From: a virus
Lineage: Duplodnaviria; Heunggongvirae; Uroviricota; Caudoviricetes
Reading direction: 5' to 3' (one strand)
IMG/VR virus record: IMGVR_UViG_2648501338_000011
DNA length: 11,352 nt
A program made the translations under genes and the position numbers. This document shows positions 986 to 11,256 of this stretch, one piece after another (position 1 is the first letter of the stretch; each line of letters opens with the position of its first letter). The notes beneath the pieces are model-generated. The model saw only the letters and a list, made by a program, of their open reading frames with translations. It did no database searches and was not told the DNA's origin.

Positions 986-1702
986 TTAAATTCTGGTCCT
1001 TACAATATCAACCTGAAGATTCTTATCTTGTGCTGATTGATAAATGACAAACCTTTTACTACCTGCATTGAAAGAAGTAGACAAAACCAGACAATTATCA
1101 TAACGAGCAAGAACATAATACCAACCATCATTATAATTAATCATTTCATATTCTTTCTTAAACTGTGGTTTGTAATATCCTGTCAGAAATGAAAAAAGCC
1201 AAAAATATGCCACAAAAGCAATCATCACAATCTCAAAAAAATGTTTTTTTATAAATGGCTTATCATAGAAGCATGATACCGATAAAAATCGCCCATAAGA
1301 TCTTATCGAAATTGTGACCGCCAGCGCAATCGCTGCTGACAGTAGCAAAAGAGGTACCTGAATCTTCTGTCTCAATATAGAAAACTCAATAATTGCCGGC
1401 ACAAACAATAATTCCACAGCAAAATAAAGGCGAAATACATTTAGCTCTTGCATAGAATGTTTTCTTTTCACTGCGAAAAAGAATACAACACCAATACCCC
1501 AACCGATAAGAAATATAGCAATGACGATAACTGCAAAAAATAAACTTCTGGCAACATCATCAACACCTGCACCTACAATCCACCATGGGAAGCCGTAGTA
1601 AAAAGAAGTACCCCATCCATAGAAATAAGCACTCCCCCATCCAAGGCATCCCATGTAGGCAATAAAAAGTGAAGAACTCCTGAGCAGCGCACCATCCTTC
1701 AT
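986..1702 (-). CDS. Hypothetical low-GC integral membrane protein (about 5 predicted TM segments plus a roughly 55-aa soluble C-terminal tail)
   Basis: Long minus-strand ORF, strongly hydrophobic with Trp/Gly/Tyr-rich N-terminal region; AT-rich codon usage unlike the flanking genes. Start uncertain: ATG at 1702 (MKDGALL...) preferred, alternatives at 1729 and 1744. No family recognised. Confidence 0.55.
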   Translation of the reverse strand: MKDGALLRSSSLFIAYMGCLGWGSAYFYGWGTSFYYGFPWWIVGAGVDDVARSLFFAVIVIAIFLIGWGIGVVFFFAVKRKHSMQELNVFRLYFAVELLFVPAIIEFSILRQKIQVPLLLLSAAIALAVTISIRSYGRFLSVSCFYDKPFIKKHFFEIVMIAFVAYFWLFSFLTGYYKPQFKKEYEMINYNDGWYYVLARYDNCLVLSTSFNAGSKRFVIYQSAQDKNLQVDIVRTRI

Positions 1703-1842
1703 AACCACCCCAATACAAGATGATAACATTGGCTTACAACTCATAACAAAAGCAATTCAATGCCGTCAAGAGGTTACAGGCTAAAAAAACTCTATTACAT
1801 AGCAGCCAGCATGTTTACCGTACAAGTACAACTCAGGGCATA

Positions 1843-1913: not shown

Positions 1914-2603
1914 TTAATCCAGTTTTGCAATATTTTGCTGTAAAAATGCTGCCTTTTGTTTTGAACGTGTTCTCGTCACAAGCAATAAAGCATCACTATC
2001 AAGCTGTAGAAAAATGTGCTTCATTGCAACCCAGCGTTCAGTAAATGTCTCGGACCAGTTTTTTGTTGTCACTCCCACCAATGATGCCAGTGTCTGGTAT
2101 TCATAGGCCTCACGCCCTGCAAGTTCGCTCTTCACATCCTGTGCAGCCAGCCAGATTAACGTCTTCAGGCGATCCAGTGTCTTACCTGCAATTTTTCTGT
2201 TACTTAACAAATCTTTAAACTCGCTCCATGCCCATTGCGTTATGGTGACCTGATGCCCCCATCGAACGCTTTCGCTGTAACACCAAAGCAACCATGCTTT
2301 CTGATGTTCATCGAGAGACAAAACCGCGCGGCGCCATGAAGAGGTTGAGAATTCAACCGGGCTGACCAAAGCAATGGATGAACCTTTTGCGTACGACTGC
2401 TTACCGGAAGTCGGCGTATTATCCAGCGTAATCATCTTGCCAGTTACCACATCCAGAATGCGCGGCTTCTTTCGTTTGTATGTACCAGTATCAAATTGTG
2501 CATGCTCCTGCCAGGCTTCGAGCTGGCCTTTCGTTGCTCCGTTCAAGTCAGCAGTAGCTGCCATAAGTTGCTCACGAACATACTGTAAATATTGGGTATT
2601 CAT
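1914..2603 (-). CDS. Late-gene antiterminator Q-like protein (non-lambda Q type)
   Basis: 229-aa ORF starting MNTQYLQYVREQL at ATG 2603 (AAAGGA SD upstream; the track's longer ORF begins at a GTG with no SD). It occupies the Q position (end of the nin operon, directly followed by a strong terminator). No similarity to the lambda Q zinc-finger sequence; assignment is by position and recollection of Q-like prophage proteins. Confidence 0.6.
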   Translation of the reverse strand: MNTQYLQYVREQLMAATADLNGATKGQLEAWQEHAQFDTGTYKRKKPRILDVVTGKMITLDNTPTSGKQSYAKGSSIALVSPVEFSTSSWRRAVLSLDEHQKAWLLWCYSESVRWGHQVTITQWAWSEFKDLLSNRKIAGKTLDRLKTLIWLAAQDVKSELAGREAYEYQTLASLVGVTTKNWSETFTERWVAMKHIFLQLDSDALLLVTRTRSKQKAAFLQQNIAKLD

Positions 2604-3076
2604 GCAGTAAATCCTTTCTATATTTTGGCATAATTCTTCAACATTCGGTAATCGTTCAAAACCGAATCGGGGAAACGACATAAGCACAGGAGCCCCCAGC
2701 GACAGCGAAGGAGTTCTGATATATAAGACTCAGACATCATTCATTCCCCGGTTCTCCAATATCTGTTTCACTCATCATCCATAACTACCTGTAATTGCCC
2801 CCCTTTTTTTGTAACAGTTCTTATATTGCTATATAGAATAGCCATTACTAATGCATTTAAATTTAATAAAATAAAAATTATAAAAAACATAAAACACCAC
2901 GCAAACACACTTAATAAAAACACCGTTACATTAAAAGATAATAAAACCGCAATAAAAAACGAATAAATCAATTGTCTCACGCAATTATAAAACATCATAT
3001 TGATTACGCACCTTGTATTACAAACTCATGTATGTAAAATACGCGCACCATTCAAAAAAAAGGAAGACAATAACAT
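2604..3076. promoter_or_regulatory. Very AT-rich intergenic region upstream of lpxR, divergent from the Q start; probable promoter/H-NS-type silenced regulatory region
   Basis: About 75-80% A+T over roughly 300 bp with multiple A/T tracts. No specific promoter pinned down. Confidence 0.3.
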
Positions 3077-4036
3077 ATGAAAAAAAGTGTCATCGCTGGC
3101 GTCTTTATTGCTCTGTCATTTACCACGTGTTCAGCTATCGCGAACAGCCTTGCATTATCATTAGCAAATGATGATGCAGGGAAGTTTCAACCAATACTTA
3201 ATGATATTTATGGCAATAAACATGAAAACAGAGATGATTACTCACAAGGCTTATTTCTGGGATATAGCCACGATATCTCAGACTCGAGCCAATTATCTCT
3301 CCATATTGCGCAAGATATTTACTCTCCATCAGGCAGTAATAAAAGACACAACACAGCTGTAACTGGAGACAGAGCTTTTAGTGCATACACTCACACTGGT
3401 ATTGAATGGAACTCCCTTGCGAATGACTGGATTCGCTATCGATTAGGTACTGACATAGGTGTTGTTGGCCCCGACGCAGGCGGTCAGAAAGTACAAAATA
3501 AAGCTCATGAGATTATTGGGGCAGAAAAATATCATGCATGGGATGATCAAATAGAGAATCGCTACGGTTATACTGTAAAAGGGATGCTATCCATGACACC
3601 AAGTATGGATATTTTAGGTGCTAATGTTGGATTATACCCTGAAGTTTCTGCTGTTACTGGAAACTTATTTCAATATGTAGCATATGGCGCAACCATTGCC
3701 ATTGGTAATGATAAAACCTTCAATTCGGATAATGGCTTTGGTCTGCTGGCTCCCCGTGGTTTAATGCATATGTCCGATACAAGCGGATTCAAATACAAGA
3801 TTTTTGCAGGTATGGAAAGACGAGATGTCAATCGCAACTATACTCTCGAAGGAAAAACAATACAGACGAAACAAACAACAGTATCGCTAAACAAAACTGT
3901 TGATGAATATCAAGTTGGCGCAACAATTGGGTATGCACCTGTAGCCTTCACACTAGCATTTAATAAAGTAACATCAGAATTCAAGACAGGGGATGACTAT
4001 TCATTTATAAATGGAGCAATCACCTTCTTTTTTTAA
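3077..4036 (+). CDS. lpxR: Outer-membrane lipid A 3'-O-deacylase LpxR (prophage moron)
   Basis: 319 aa; signal peptide ending AIA; C-terminal ...ITFFF typical of beta-barrel OMPs. With mature numbering from N23, residues N9, D10, S34 and H122 align with the LpxR catalytic set (N9, D10, T34, H122). Gene is lower GC than the neighbouring nin genes. Confidence 0.85.
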   Translation: MKKSVIAGVFIALSFTTCSAIANSLALSLANDDAGKFQPILNDIYGNKHENRDDYSQGLFLGYSHDISDSSQLSLHIAQDIYSPSGSNKRHNTAVTGDRAFSAYTHTGIEWNSLANDWIRYRLGTDIGVVGPDAGGQKVQNKAHEIIGAEKYHAWDDQIENRYGYTVKGMLSMTPSMDILGANVGLYPEVSAVTGNLFQYVAYGATIAIGNDKTFNSDNGFGLLAPRGLMHMSDTSGFKYKIFAGMERRDVNRNYTLEGKTIQTKQTTVSLNKTVDEYQVGATIGYAPVAFTLAFNKVTSEFKTGDDYSFINGAITFFF

Positions 4037-7188: not shown

Positions 7189-9514
<2,326 letters not shown>

Positions 9515-9638: not shown

Positions 9639-9678
9639 TAAGCCATCAGCAGGACGCACTGACCACCATTGAAGGTGA

Positions 9679-9709
9679 GGCTCTTAAAAATTAAGCCCTG
9701 AAGAAGGGC
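9679..9709 (+). promoter_or_regulatory. nutL (boxA GGCTCTTA + boxB hairpin GCCCTGAAGAAGGGC)
   Basis: boxA-like 9679..9686 and boxB stem-loop 9695..9709 (5-bp stem GCCCT/AGGGC, GAAGA loop), about 160 nt upstream of N, as in the lambda PL leader. Confidence 0.8.
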
Positions 9710-9866
9710 AGCATTCAAAGCAGAAGGCTTTGGTGTGTGTGATACGAAACGAAGCATTGGCCGGAAGTGCGAATCCGGATTAGCTGCCAATGTGCCATTG
9801 CGGGGTGTTTTCGTTCAGGACTACGACTCCCACACACAACCAAAGCTAACTGACAGGAGAATCCAG

Positions 9867-10190
9867 ATGGATGCACAAACACGCCGCCGCGAACGTCGCG
9901 CAGAGAAACAGGCTCAATGGAAAGCAGCAAATCCCCTGTTGGTTGGGGTAAGCGCTAAACCAGTTAACCGCCCTATTCTCTCGCTGAATCGCAAACCGAA
10001 ATCACGAGTAGAAAGCGCACTGAATCCGATAGACCTTACGGTGCTGGCTGAATACCACGAACAGATTGAAAGCAACCTGCAACGTATTGAGCGCAAGAAT
10101 CATCGAGTTTGGTATAGCAAGCCAGGTGAGTTCGGTATAACTTGTCAAGGAAGACAAAAGGTTAAAGGGGAATCCATTCCATTGGCATGA
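9867..10190 (+). CDS. N: Antitermination protein N
   Basis: 107 aa, MDAQTRRRERRAEKQAQWKAANPLLVGVSAKPVNRPILSLNRKPKSRVESALNPIDLTVLAEYH...; arginine-rich boxB-binding motif; AGGAGA SD. The track ORF from 9735 is an upstream in-frame extension. Confidence 0.95.
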   Translation: MDAQTRRRERRAEKQAQWKAANPLLVGVSAKPVNRPILSLNRKPKSRVESALNPIDLTVLAEYHEQIESNLQRIERKNHRVWYSKPGEFGITCQGRQKVKGESIPLA

Positions 10191-10198
10191 GGTACGTA

Positions 10199-11068
10199 AT
10201 GAAGAAGATTGATTACAAGTCCATACCAAAACCAATAGACTCAGCATCAGAGCGAAAAAAACACAAAAAAGAGGCTGAAAAATTAGCAAATTATATCAGT
10301 TTTATTAGAAACAATGCTCACGGCGATGGCGACAAGAAGTTGCTTTCAGATGCTCGGACCCAAGCGTTCGGTATACTTCGTAAGCAGATGCAATATCGTC
10401 TTCATCCTGGCTACATAATTGAAATTCGCCCTACTGAAAGACAATTGTTCTTATTAAACTCTGTCTTTGACTTTGTAAACGTAGTTGGAGATCTTATCGA
10501 CAGGTCTGTAGATAAGGATCCTGATACAAATAGTTTTCTTCTAACAAATAAAGAATACTTATATGGTAAATTCGGTATAAACGGATGGCAAAAATATGTA
10601 CGCTTCTTACGTGCATTCGTTGATGCGTATAAAAATTCCGACATGATTTATACATATTTGCCTGGTGGTGATAATTGTACGCTTTCGGCAGACAATAGAA
10701 TATTCATACCTGTACTTGGTCTTGGGCTGATTAATGCAGTAAATGAAAAAGATGTTATAATTGTTAAGCAGTGGCGAAAATATGAGGGATATAGATATCT
10801 GCCATGCTTTGATATATTAAAAATACAGAATAAATTCTATGTAAAAATTAAATATAAAGAAGATATTTTCTTCCTCAGAAAAAACAAAGATCTTTTACAA
10901 GAACTTTCTGGTACAATAGATGTCATCTTAGGTTCTAGGTTTATAAAAGAACTGAAAGAAAGCAGGTCTTTCTCTCGTGTAGAGATAAGCGAGTCAGAGT
11001 TATGGGGTATATCAAATAATCCTGTAAACCACGCTCACCAACGAAACCCAAACAAAAAGTGGTCATAA
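10199..11068 (+). CDS. Hypothetical low-GC cytoplasmic protein (289 aa) immediately downstream of N
   Basis: ATG at 10199 preceded by GAGGT SD (the track start at 10187 overlaps the N stop). Lys/Arg-rich, no TM segments, A+T-rich codon usage contrasting with N. No family recognised. Confidence 0.6.
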   Translation: MKKIDYKSIPKPIDSASERKKHKKEAEKLANYISFIRNNAHGDGDKKLLSDARTQAFGILRKQMQYRLHPGYIIEIRPTERQLFLLNSVFDFVNVVGDLIDRSVDKDPDTNSFLLTNKEYLYGKFGINGWQKYVRFLRAFVDAYKNSDMIYTYLPGGDNCTLSADNRIFIPVLGLGLINAVNEKDVIIVKQWRKYEGYRYLPCFDILKIQNKFYVKIKYKEDIFFLRKNKDLLQELSGTIDVILGSRFIKELKESRSFSRVEISESELWGISNNPVNHAHQRNPNKKWS

Positions 11069-11118
11069 CCCGCTCAGGCGGATTTCATTTTCACGCAAAC
11101 AACAGAATAAACACAGCG

Positions 11119-11150
11119 CTGTGTATTCATTCCAACGAGTGAATACACGG
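11119..11150. repeat. Inverted repeat / stem-loop (about 12-14 bp stem, CAAC tetraloop) in the region downstream of the 289-aa ORF
   Basis: GTGTATTCA (11121..11129) is the exact reverse complement of TGAATACAC (11140..11148); the stem extends inward by 3 bp. No adjacent U-tract. Confidence 0.6.
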
Positions 11151-11210
11151 AGCAATGTCGCTCGTAACTAAACAGGAGCCGACTTGTTCTGATTATTGGA
11201 AATCTTCTTT

Positions 11211-11236
11211 GCCCTCCAAGATGAGGGCGATTTTTT
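11211..11236 (+). terminator. Rho-independent terminator (GCCCTC/GAGGGC stem, 6-nt loop, T6 tract)
   Basis: Stem 11211..11216 and 11223..11228 followed by GATTTTTTAT. Confidence 0.65.
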
Positions 11237-11256
11237 ATCTGTGAGGATATGAACAG

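What the first reader, a model, noticed from the sequence alone, without database searches (positions are those of the whole stretch)
10199..11068. Low-GC 289-aa ORF directly downstream of N (ral/sieB/kil slot): candidate defence or anti-defence gene
Seen in sequence: an intact ORF with a good SD, translationally adjacent to N, whose A+T-rich composition contrasts sharply with the lambda-like N gene; the protein is basic, soluble, and matches no family I recognise. Established knowledge: the early-left region immediately after N in lambdoid phages carries restriction-alleviation and superinfection-exclusion genes (ral, sieB, kil in lambda) and is a common insertion point for cargo. Inference: this is a horizontally acquired cargo gene plausibly involved in phage-phage or phage-host conflict; its function is unknown.
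Basis: partly seen in the sequence, partly recalled or inferred. Interest (0 to 1): 0.65.

Follow-up and report, generated by a model that had tools for sequence, protein, structure and literature searches.

The report
Nun-tailed TnpB-like protein of phage 434
The ORF after N is gene 48 of phage 434: a 289-residue protein that joins a predicted TnpB/Cas12-like nucleic-acid-binding fold to the exact peptide that phage HK022's Nun protein uses to jam RNA polymerase, so it is most likely a targeted transcription-arrest weapon used in conflicts between phages, although nobody has tested it.

Summary
The ORF is real: 10199-11068, 289 aa, GC 34.6% against 48.8% for N. It is 100% identical to gp48 of phage 434, which GenBank already labels 'Nun C-terminal peptide-containing protein'. 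The window is a 434-like prophage crippled by a deletion.

This tail is the best-conserved segment in divergent homologues: 79% identity against 41-45% in the core.

The family is tiny. It always sits just behind the phage's antitermination device: N, or putL (the nun slot) in HK022-like phages.

Distant relatives carry a different conserved tail (GGLPSLGKRR). They lie in bacterial genomes, in two operon variants between brxC and pglX of BREX.

Best reading: a Nun-type transcription-arrest or exclusion factor with a TnpB-derived recognition module. Target and phenotype are untested.

The parts
9695..9709 (+). nutL boxB hairpin (GCCCTGAAGAAGGGC), lambda type. Context only: the phage's own N-utilisation site upstream of the gene.
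   Evidence: Sequence. Annotated as the nutL stem-loop in phage 434. Lies in the block that is 92% identical to lambda 35583-35047.
9867..10190 (+). N antiterminator gene (107 aa, lambda type). Its stop codon is 8 nt before the ORF start.
   Evidence: PGAP names it 'antitermination protein N'.
10189..10192 (+). Shine-Dalgarno GAGG, overlapping the N stop codon, 6 nt before ATG 10199.
   Evidence: Annotated as RBS in phage 434.
10199..11068 (+). The whole gene (289 codons plus stop). It equals phage 434 CPT_434_48 / UMO75312.1, 'Nun C-terminal peptide-containing protein'.
   Evidence: 100% identity. PHROG 12139 full length. dN/dS 0.20 between alleles.
10199..10393 (+). Residues 1-65: basic N-terminal segment (..IPKPIDSASERKKHKKEAEKLANY..) predicted as a helical hairpin. 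It is the least conserved part and a possible specificity determinant. Its resemblance to an Arg-rich motif (ARM) is not proven.
   Evidence: AF2 helices 16-38 and 43-65. 26-54% identity to homologues. hhalign against short-Nun ARM regions E 0.062, not significant.
10859..10975 (+). Residues 221-259: long C-terminal helix. It ends just before the conserved motif KESRSFSRVEIS, which spans residues 253-264 and runs on into the disordered segment. The bacterial relatives carry the same motif as S..Y.RVDF.
   Evidence: AF2 helix 221-259, pLDDT 54-70. Alignment A5.
10976..11065 (+). Residues 260-289: predicted disordered tail. The last 14 residues (nt 11024-11065, VNHAHQRNPNKKWS) are identical to HK022 Nun residues 96-109, the RNA-polymerase arrest peptide.
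   Evidence: pLDDT below 50 for 260-281 and 287-289. Nun sequence. Nun contacts N97, H98, H100, R102, K106, K107, W108 and the S109 carboxylate (PMC5386594). 79% tail identity in homologues that are 41-45% identical in the core.
11023..11238 (+). DNA block shared with HK022 (94.7%): the nun 3' end plus the downstream region, interrupted in HK022 by IS903. From 11097 on it is also shared with lambda (97.7%).
11209..11238 (+). Intrinsic terminator (8-bp stem followed by TTTTTT) 140 nt after the gene.
   Evidence: Annotated as a terminator in phage 434.

Best explanation
The gene encodes a 'long Nun': a transcription-elongation arrest factor built from three parts.

1. [quoted passage not shown] This is the effector.
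2. A folded core with the predicted WED+REC fold of TnpB/Cas12, lacking the RuvC nuclease. Together with the variable basic N-terminus, it is inferred to recognise a specific nucleic acid (a nascent RNA element or a DNA site) and so deliver the tail to particular elongation complexes.
3. A long connecting helix.

The gene is transcribed from pL directly behind the phage's own antitermination device. The phage's own N-modified (or put-modified) polymerases are inferred to be protected. Unmodified or foreign elongation complexes (competing phages, other mobile elements, possibly the host) would be arrested.

Shown here: the identity and conservation of the tail, the predicted fold, the gene position and the family distribution. 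Inferred: RNA polymerase arrest, the target, self-protection and the exclusion phenotype.
For: Tail:
- The last 14 aa are identical to Nun 96-109. PHROG 5632 hits residues 270-289.
- Every Nun residue reported to contact polymerase or nucleic acid from N97 to the C-terminal carboxylate is present (PMC5386594).
- Nun lacking its 13 C-terminal residues is inactive (same paper).
- The tail is the most conserved region in five divergent homologues. It always ends at ..KKW(S)-stop.
- It is predicted disordered, as expected for a peptide that orders only inside the polymerase.

Architecture survey:
- In 120 IMG/VR loci the tail occurs on only two architectures: short ARM-bearing Nuns and this 288-290-aa type.

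Position:
- In HK022-like phages the long form occupies the nun slot, after pL-putL and followed by a terminator.
- Elsewhere it directly follows N or an N-like gene: PF11438 N hits in L005 and L011, a lambda-like N in L089, and in L111 an arginine-rich ORF that I judged N-like by eye.

Fold:
- Colinear profile alignment to the TnpB N-terminus, P 0.011.

Conflict context:
- Relatives lie between brxC and pglX of BREX operons and in a locus with DISARM-like genes.

Self-protection:
- put-modified polymerase reads through Nun-dependent signals. Lambda N runs along the hybrid inside the catalytic cavity (PMC8632103).
Against: - There is no experiment of any kind on this protein. Neither the 434 genome paper (PMC9119081) nor the literature searches mention it.
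- Nun H93 and R94, which contact upstream DNA, are N and N here.
- The similarity of the N-terminus to an ARM is not significant, so the targeting principle is unknown.
- Sequence-level similarity to TnpB is weak. The fold call rests on one AF2 model made from 30 sequences.
- The consensus scan found no promoter that would express the gene in a repressed lysogen. Classic prophage-mediated exclusion, as with HK022 Nun, is therefore not established.
- The phage carries lambda-type nut sites itself, so the target cannot be the one known for Nun.
- The 94.7% DNA identity of the tail and its downstream block to HK022 shows that recombination moves this segment. That weakens 'conservation' as an argument for the 434 allele taken alone.
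Confidence: 0.55

Rival explanations
1. General shut-off rather than targeted arrest. When made in quantity from pL, the protein jams any unmodified RNA polymerase, both host and competitor. Specificity would come only from the immunity of the phage's own N- or put-modified polymerases. The WED-REC core would be a scaffold or a polymerase-docking domain, not a sequence reader.
For: Nun itself arrests non-specifically and is toxic at high concentration (PMC5386594). The gene is co-transcribed with N, or lies right after putL, in every lineage seen. No promoter for lysogenic expression was detected. put-modified polymerase resists Nun, and N occupies the catalytic cavity.
Against: The N-terminus varies strongly between lineages while the tail stays fixed, which looks like diversifying target recognition. 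A 220-residue conserved fold of a nucleic-acid-recognition type is a lot of protein for a mere spacer.
Confidence: 0.2
2. The Nun tail is a passenger of mosaic recombination and has no function in this protein. The protein would act only through its WED-REC core, for example as a DNA- or RNA-binding regulator, or as an anti-defence mimic of the BREX-associated relatives.
For: The homology with HK022 begins inside the last 15 codons and continues into the shared downstream block, which is a typical lambdoid mosaic junction. Relatives with the same core work without a Nun tail. Some of those relatives sit inside BREX operons.
Against: Homologues 41-45% identical in the core keep 11 of 14 tail residues, including every contact residue and the position of the C-terminus. 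Their substitutions (Q to R, N to D, N to R) show separate descent rather than recent copying. The bacterial relatives have their own invariant tail at the same place, which suggests the tail position is the working end of the family.
Confidence: 0.12
3. Self-regulator. The protein binds the phage's own nut RNA and competes with N, giving negative feedback on early-left transcription or on the lysis-lysogeny decision rather than acting on rivals.
For: It is translated right after N from the same mRNA. The N-terminal stretch ERKKHKKEAEKLANY can be lined up by eye with lambda N's QTRRRERRAEKQAQW (AEK.A.aromatic). Nun and N are known to compete for boxB.
Against: The ARM resemblance is not significant and is not conserved in homologues (Y32 becomes C or H). 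In HK022-like phages the same protein follows putL, where there is no N and no nut site. Arresting one's own early transcripts would be costly.
Confidence: 0.08

Closest known systems
HK022 Nun transcription termination/arrest factor (P18683; PHROG 5632)
   Same: The C-terminal 14 residues are identical, with all known polymerase and nucleic-acid contact residues from N97 onward and the free C-terminus at the same place. The N-terminus is basic. The gene position downstream of pL and the antitermination element matches, and in HK022-like phages it is literally the nun slot. The two genes share downstream DNA.
   Different: It is 289 aa against 109 aa. A folded insert of about 220 residues (N-terminal helical hairpin plus TnpB-like WED+REC core plus a long helix) sits between the basic N-terminus and the tail. 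Nun H93 and R94 are not conserved. An ARM is not demonstrable. It coexists with a lambda-type N and lambda-type nut sites, so it cannot have Nun's target. Expression in the lysogen is unknown.
TnpB / Cas12 RNA-guided nucleases (ISDra2 TnpB 8H1J/8EXA, Cas12n 9UDI, Cas12f and others)
   Different: There is no RuvC nuclease, no TNB/zinc-ribbon domain and no Pfam OrfB hit. No omega-RNA-like structure or conserved non-coding flank was found. There are no IS200/IS605 ends and no TnpA. Sequence similarity is not significant on its own.
TldR (TnpB-like nuclease-dead repressors) - recalled from memory, not examined here
   Same: The concept is the same: a domesticated TnpB-type module used to control transcription instead of cutting DNA.
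   Different: As I recall, TldRs keep an inactivated RuvC domain and a guide RNA and block initiation by binding DNA. This protein has lost RuvC altogether, shows no guide RNA, and carries a peptide that acts on elongating polymerase.
Unnamed bacterial relatives (P0010-P0035), some embedded in BREX operons
   Same: They share the core domain (HMM E 5e-16 to 9e-4), the conserved S..(F/Y).RV(E/D) motif after the long helix, and a short conserved C-terminal tail.
   Different: Their tail is GGLPSLGK(R/G/H)R instead of the Nun peptide. They are chromosomal in Beta- and other Proteobacteria, not in lambdoid phages. No database annotates them.
Lambda ral / sieB / kil
   Same: The place in the early-left operon is the same: the gene replaces the lambda segment that carries ral.
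   Different: There is no sequence or family relationship. kil and cIII homologues lie further downstream in phage 434.

Membership tests
HK022 Nun family | C-terminal arrest peptide (N97, H98, H100, R102, K106, K107, aromatic 108, free carboxylate at 109) | tested here: met
   VNHAHQRNPNKKWS-stop is identical to Nun 96-109. Contact list from PMC5386594. PHROG 5632 hit on residues 270-289.
HK022 Nun family | N-terminal arginine-rich motif that binds a boxB hairpin | tested here: inconclusive
   A basic stretch is present at residues 15-30. hhalign of long-type N-termini against short-Nun ARM regions gives E 0.062, probability 0.9%. There is no Pfam N36 or N_peptide hit. AF2 makes the stretch part of a helical hairpin.
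HK022 Nun family | Small (about 80-117 aa) protein matched end to end by the family profile | tested here: not met
   The protein is 289 aa. PHROG 5632 matches only profile positions 93-112. The short Nuns in IMG/VR are 79-117 aa.
HK022 Nun family | Gene downstream of pL and the antitermination element, followed by a terminator | tested here: met
   Window: pL-nutL-N-gene-terminator. L003 and L070: pL-putL-gene-terminator, the nun slot.
HK022 Nun family | Arrests E. coli elongation complexes and excludes a heterologous phage; relieved by rpoC R322H, D264G or D329G | not testable with these tools
   Needs biochemistry and genetics.
TnpB / Cas12 (IS200/IS605 OrfB) | WED domain with inserted REC helical bundle | tested here: met
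TnpB / Cas12 (IS200/IS605 OrfB) | RuvC nuclease domain and TNB/zinc-ribbon | tested here: not met
   After the WED strands the protein has only one helix and a disordered tail. No PF01385 or PF07282 hit in any of 22 family members.
TnpB / Cas12 (IS200/IS605 OrfB) | Cis-encoded guide RNA (omega RNA) at the 3' end of the gene | tested here: not met
   The 3' end plus downstream region folds no better than shuffles (z -0.35). There are no Rfam hits. The flanks differ between lineages or are shared with phages that lack the domain.
TnpB / Cas12 (IS200/IS605 OrfB) | Significant sequence-profile similarity | tested here: inconclusive
   Pfam and PDB profile searches are negative. hhalign against ISDra2 TnpB gives E 0.032. 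Against a 77-sequence TnpB N-terminal profile it gives 122 colinear columns, P 0.011, probability 3.9%.
BREX (known components) | Match to a known Brx/Pgl protein model, or location in a BREX operon | tested here: not met
   There is no PADLOC hit for the window protein or for 21 relatives. The window gene lies in a prophage. Only two operon variants of distant relatives lie between brxC and pglX, and nine genome loci have no BREX neighbours.
Lambda Ral / SieB / Kil | Sequence similarity to these proteins | tested here: not met
   No such family appears in PHROGs or Pfam. The DNA replaces the lambda ral segment without homology to it.

The most novel reading that the evidence does not exclude
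The family may represent a previously unrecognised class of conflict proteins. A TnpB-derived WED-REC sensor that has lost its nuclease would instead carry an exchangeable C-terminal 'harpoon' peptide that disables a host machine. The harpoon is the Nun peptide for RNA polymerase in lambdoid phages, and the invariant GGLPSLGKRR tail for an unknown target in bacterial defence loci, including BREX.

In the boldest version, the WED-REC module still reads nucleic-acid sequence through a trans-encoded or target-derived RNA, or a TAM-like DNA motif. That would make it a natural programmable roadblock for elongating polymerase.
Probability: 0.15. Interest if true: 0.9.

Novelty: new variant of a known kind. 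Interest (0 to 1): 0.7.

Why it matters
Nun is the textbook case of a phage protein that kills a rival by jamming RNA polymerase. Only the short form that targets boxB through its arginine-rich motif (ARM) has been studied.

This work points to a second, larger architecture in which the same arrest peptide hangs on a folded module of the TnpB/Cas12 type. It sits in one of the oldest laboratory phages (434) and in about 1.7% of complete E. coli genomes. If it is active, three things follow.

1. The Nun peptide would be a portable effector that can be re-targeted.
2. It would be an example of TnpB domestication that discards the nuclease altogether.
3. It would link a lambdoid early-left gene to uncharacterised genes embedded in BREX operons.

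It would also give a simple reason why the gene always travels with the phage's own antitermination device: self-protection. All of this is directly testable with existing Nun assays and Nun-resistant rpoC mutants.

Tried and rejected
- Pfam, NCBIfam and PADLOC scans of the protein and of 21 relatives gave nothing.
- A PDB sequence-profile search gave only noise.
- The first AF2 run, with a 3-sequence alignment, gave pLDDT 43 and was discarded.
- Foldseek against PDB and BFVD listed Cas12 proteins first, but with no significant E-values, so I do not lean on it.
- The afdb50 library was unavailable.
- Guide-RNA idea: no Rfam hit, no excess RNA structure at the 3' end, and no conserved non-coding flank. 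I rejected it as the main reading and kept it only in the novel case.
- ARM homology of the N-terminus is not significant.
- 'BREX component' as a general description was rejected. Nine genome loci with relatives have no BREX genes nearby.
- 'The tail is a recombination accident' was rejected as the main reading, because the tail is conserved in divergent homologues.
- Promoter scan for lysogenic expression: nothing upstream of the gene. However, the scan also failed to report the annotated pL, so it is uninformative.
- Literature: no paper in the library mentions this gene or links Nun with TnpB or BREX.

Full report
**What is in the window.** The window is 99.7% identical to Escherichia phage 434 (OL657226.1, 31489-43898, reverse strand). 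It runs from the Q/lysis-proximal morons, through nin, P and O, and through imm434 (cro, cI, hex, pL, nutL, N), to the start of ea10. It differs from phage 434 by a 1047-bp deletion at window position 8288. The deletion removes the cro 3' end, nutR, cII, oop, the ori iterons and the O 5' end. The window therefore comes from a defective 434-like prophage.

**Checking the observation.**
- The longest frame is 10187-11068 (293 aa). The ATG at 10199 gives 289 aa and is the annotated start in phage 434. It also corresponds to the start of the homologues.
- GAGG lies 6 nt upstream and overlaps the N stop codon. N and the ORF are 8 nt apart.
- GC is 34.6% (GC3 30%), against 48.8% for N and 44.5% for the window. 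The pI is 9.5.
- Two alleles that differ at 18 nt give dN/dS of 0.20.
- The body of the gene occurs in 93 of 5426 complete E. coli genomes. It is always chromosomal, and PGAP always calls it 'hypothetical protein'.

**Identity.** The protein is 100% identical to phage 434 gp48 (UMO75312.1). Its depositors named it 'Nun C-terminal peptide-containing protein' on BLASTP similarity to HK022 Nun. The genome announcement does not discuss it (PMC9119081). I found no paper on it. PHROG 12139 (unknown function) covers the full length. PHROG 5632, 'Nun-like transcription termination factor', covers only residues 270-289. Pfam, NCBIfam and PADLOC are silent.

**The tail.**
- HK022 Nun ends ..MHRVVNHAHQRNPNKKWS. 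The window protein ends ..SNNPVNHAHQRNPNKKWS. The last 14 residues are identical.
- In the cryo-EM structure of Nun in an E. coli elongation complex, only residues 87-109 are ordered. Residues N97, H98, H100, R102, K106, K107, W108 and the S109 carboxylate make the contacts with the beta' rudder and lid, the RNA and the DNA. Nun without its last 13 residues is inactive and does not bind polymerase (PMC5386594). All of these residues are present here. H93 and R94 are not.
- At the DNA level, homology to HK022 (94.7%) starts at window 11023, inside the last 15 codons. It continues downstream across the point where HK022 carries IS903, and a 9-bp duplication is visible there. From 11097 the sequence is also lambda-like.
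- The region is therefore a mosaic. Lambda-type pL-nutL-N occupies 9644-10180. A unique A+T-rich body occupies 10181-11022. A Nun-type tail and downstream block follows. Together the gene replaces lambda 35046-34065, the segment with ral.

**Is the tail just a recombination scar? The family says no.**
- A search of 5.8 billion proteins found only four clusters. An exhaustive HMM search of 1.84 billion representatives added a few more.
- The full-length homologues (P0003, P0004, P0005, P0006, P0034 and the L111 ORF) are 37-68% identical overall. All end in the same kind of tail: VNHAHRRDPRKKWS, VNHAHARNPKKKW, VNHAHNRDPRKKWS and so on.
- In the four most divergent of the five homologues compared (P0004, P0005, P0006, L111), the tail is the best-conserved segment, at 79% identity. 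The core is 41-45% identical and the N-terminal 65 residues 26-43%.
- A degenerate DNA pattern for the tail found 120 IMG/VR loci. Tail-bearing ORFs there have only two architectures. One is short Nuns of 79-117 aa, with at least seven different arginine-rich N-termini. The other is this 288-290-aa type. A few 5'-truncated copies also occur.

**Position.**
- In loci L003 and L070 the cI, cro and pL-putL leader are HK022-like. There the 290-aa gene occupies exactly the nun slot and is followed by a strong intrinsic terminator.
- In the window and in L005, L011, L089 and L111, the gene starts within a few bases of the end of N or an N-like gene. N is called by Pfam in L005 and L011, by sequence resemblance to lambda N in L089, and only by eye in L111 (an arginine-rich ORF).
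- The 434-type allele is almost always linked to cI434-hex-pL-N.
- The gene therefore travels with the phage's antitermination device and does not behave as free cargo.

**The body.**
- With 3 sequences AlphaFold failed (pLDDT 43). The exhaustive search supplied distant relatives, and a 30-sequence alignment gave a confident model: mean pLDDT 82, with residues 11-220 mostly 85-96.
- The model has an N-terminal helical hairpin (16-65), a strand (71-77), three helices (80-145), a beta-rich unit with one helix (152-219), a long helix (221-259) and a disordered tail (260-289).
- Foldseek also lists Cas12 proteins first, but without significance.
- The topology (beta1, helical bundle, beta-barrel strands) is that of a WED domain with an inserted REC domain.
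- Sequence evidence is weak but points to the same register. hhalign puts query 71-96 on ISDra2 TnpB 6-31 (E 0.032). I verified that TnpB sequence against 8BF8. A 77-sequence TnpB N-terminal profile aligns colinearly over 122 columns, query 65-184 on TnpB 1-148, with P 0.011.
- There is no RuvC domain and no zinc ribbon.
- I found no sign of a guide RNA. There are no Rfam hits, no excess structure at the 3' end (z -0.35), and no conserved non-coding flank.

**Relatives without the Nun tail.**
- Proteins P0010-P0035 (213-326 aa; E 5e-16 to 9e-4) share the core. They also share the S..(F/Y).RV(E/D) motif that follows the long helix. They end in a different, invariant tail, GGLPSLGK(R/G/H)R.
- Two of them lie between brxC and pglX of operons whose BrxA, BrxB, BrxC and PglX are confirmed by PADLOC. 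An Hsp70-like gene and a second methyltransferase lie downstream.
- Another relative lies beside ParB_N, NYN and RelA/SpoT genes and opposite DISARM-like genes.
- Nine loci in Dechloromonas, Burkholderia, Paraburkholderia, Neisseria and others show no BREX neighbours.
- The association with defence loci is therefore suggestive, not constant. No database names these proteins.

**How it most likely works.**
- The effector is the Nun peptide. Given its identity to Nun and its conservation, I infer that it enters the elongation complex as Nun's does and blocks translocation.
- In Nun, the residues before the tail leave the polymerase near the RNA exit channel and upstream DNA. That is where the WED-REC core and the variable basic N-terminus would sit, well placed to read a nascent RNA element or nearby DNA.
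- The pattern of fixed tail, conserved core and fast-evolving N-terminus fits an effector-scaffold-specificity arrangement.
- This phage has lambda-type nut sites and N, so the target cannot be Nun's own target.
- The invariable position behind N or putL suggests self-protection. put-modified polymerase reads through Nun-dependent signals, and lambda N itself runs along the hybrid inside the catalytic cavity (PMC8632103). This step is inference.
- Whether the protein is made in the lysogen (true prophage exclusion) or only early in lytic growth could not be decided. The promoter scan is uninformative.

**Rivals.** I considered three: non-specific shut-off with self-immunity, a functionless tail with the core doing something else (including anti-BREX mimicry), and self-regulation at the phage's own nut sites. 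They are set out with their evidence in the structured fields.

**Verdict.**
It missed the decisive feature, the Nun tail, and the fact that the gene is already annotated in phage 434.
- The gene belongs functionally with Nun but fails membership of the Nun family as a whole protein. It has a TnpB-like fold but fails membership of TnpB/Cas12, because it has no nuclease and no guide.
- I rate it a new variant of a known kind. The known part is the arrest peptide. The unreported parts are the TnpB-like WED-REC module and the link to uncharacterised bacterial proteins, some embedded in BREX operons.

Noticed in passing
window 7883-8509 (- strand), junction at 8288: Relative to phage 434 the window lacks 1047 bp: the cro 3' end, boxA/nutR, cII, oop, the four ori iterons and the O 5' end. 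This leaves a 208-aa Cro::O fusion ORF. The prophage cannot replicate or express its early-right operon normally, so it is a cryptic remnant.
   Followed up: partly
IMG/VR loci L015-L134, e.g. L017, L018, L019, L027, L036, L041, L110, L128: There are at least seven divergent short Nun-like proteins (79-117 aa). They carry the same C-terminal peptide but quite different arginine-rich N-termini. The Nun family is broader than the single HK022 protein and probably targets several nut types.
   Followed up: partly
L006-L010 (e.g. L009 3128-16867): These BREX operons carry extra genes in the order brxA-brxB-brxC-[WED-REC relative]-pglX-376 aa-423 aa-Hsp70-like (610 aa)-second MmeI-type methyltransferase. 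L009 has a WYL regulator upstream. The 376-aa and 423-aa proteins have no Pfam or PADLOC match.
   Followed up: partly
P0010-P0035; L135 10856-11530; L140-L143: An invariant C-terminal tail GGLPSLGK(R/G/H)R ends the bacterial relatives. In L135 the next ORF ends ..GSYGSGKRR. Four genome loci (Paraburkholderia, Bradyrhizobium, Hyphomicrobiales) match only the tail region. The tail may be a portable peptide in its own right, with an unknown target.
   Followed up: no
L002 (HK022) 2602-3658 against window 11127-11135: IS903 in HK022 is inserted 68 nt downstream of nun. The window shows the uninterrupted sequence and the 9-bp target duplication.
   Followed up: yes
L042, L058, L062, L095 (first in-frame ATG leaves 226 aa); L085, L127 (first ATG leaves 141 aa of a 203-codon frame); L047 (46-aa remnant after N): Several viral contigs carry 5'-truncated or remnant copies of the 434-type gene that still keep the tail. 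The gene decays in some prophages.
   Followed up: no
window 9110-9514 (+): The hex gene lies downstream of cI. In phage 434 it is annotated as protecting the repressor from RecA-dependent cleavage. It is a second accessory gene of the immunity region, next to the finding.
   Followed up: no
window 3077-4036 (+) and 986-1744 (-): Low-GC morons sit near the Q region. One is an LpxR-type outer-membrane lipid A deacylase. The other is a 252-aa multi-pass membrane protein of unknown function next to TciB (434 annotation).
   Followed up: no
window 10187-10190: An in-frame ATG overlaps the N stop codon (ATGA), four codons upstream of the annotated start. Translational coupling to N from this codon is possible and would add MRYV to the protein.
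   Followed up: no
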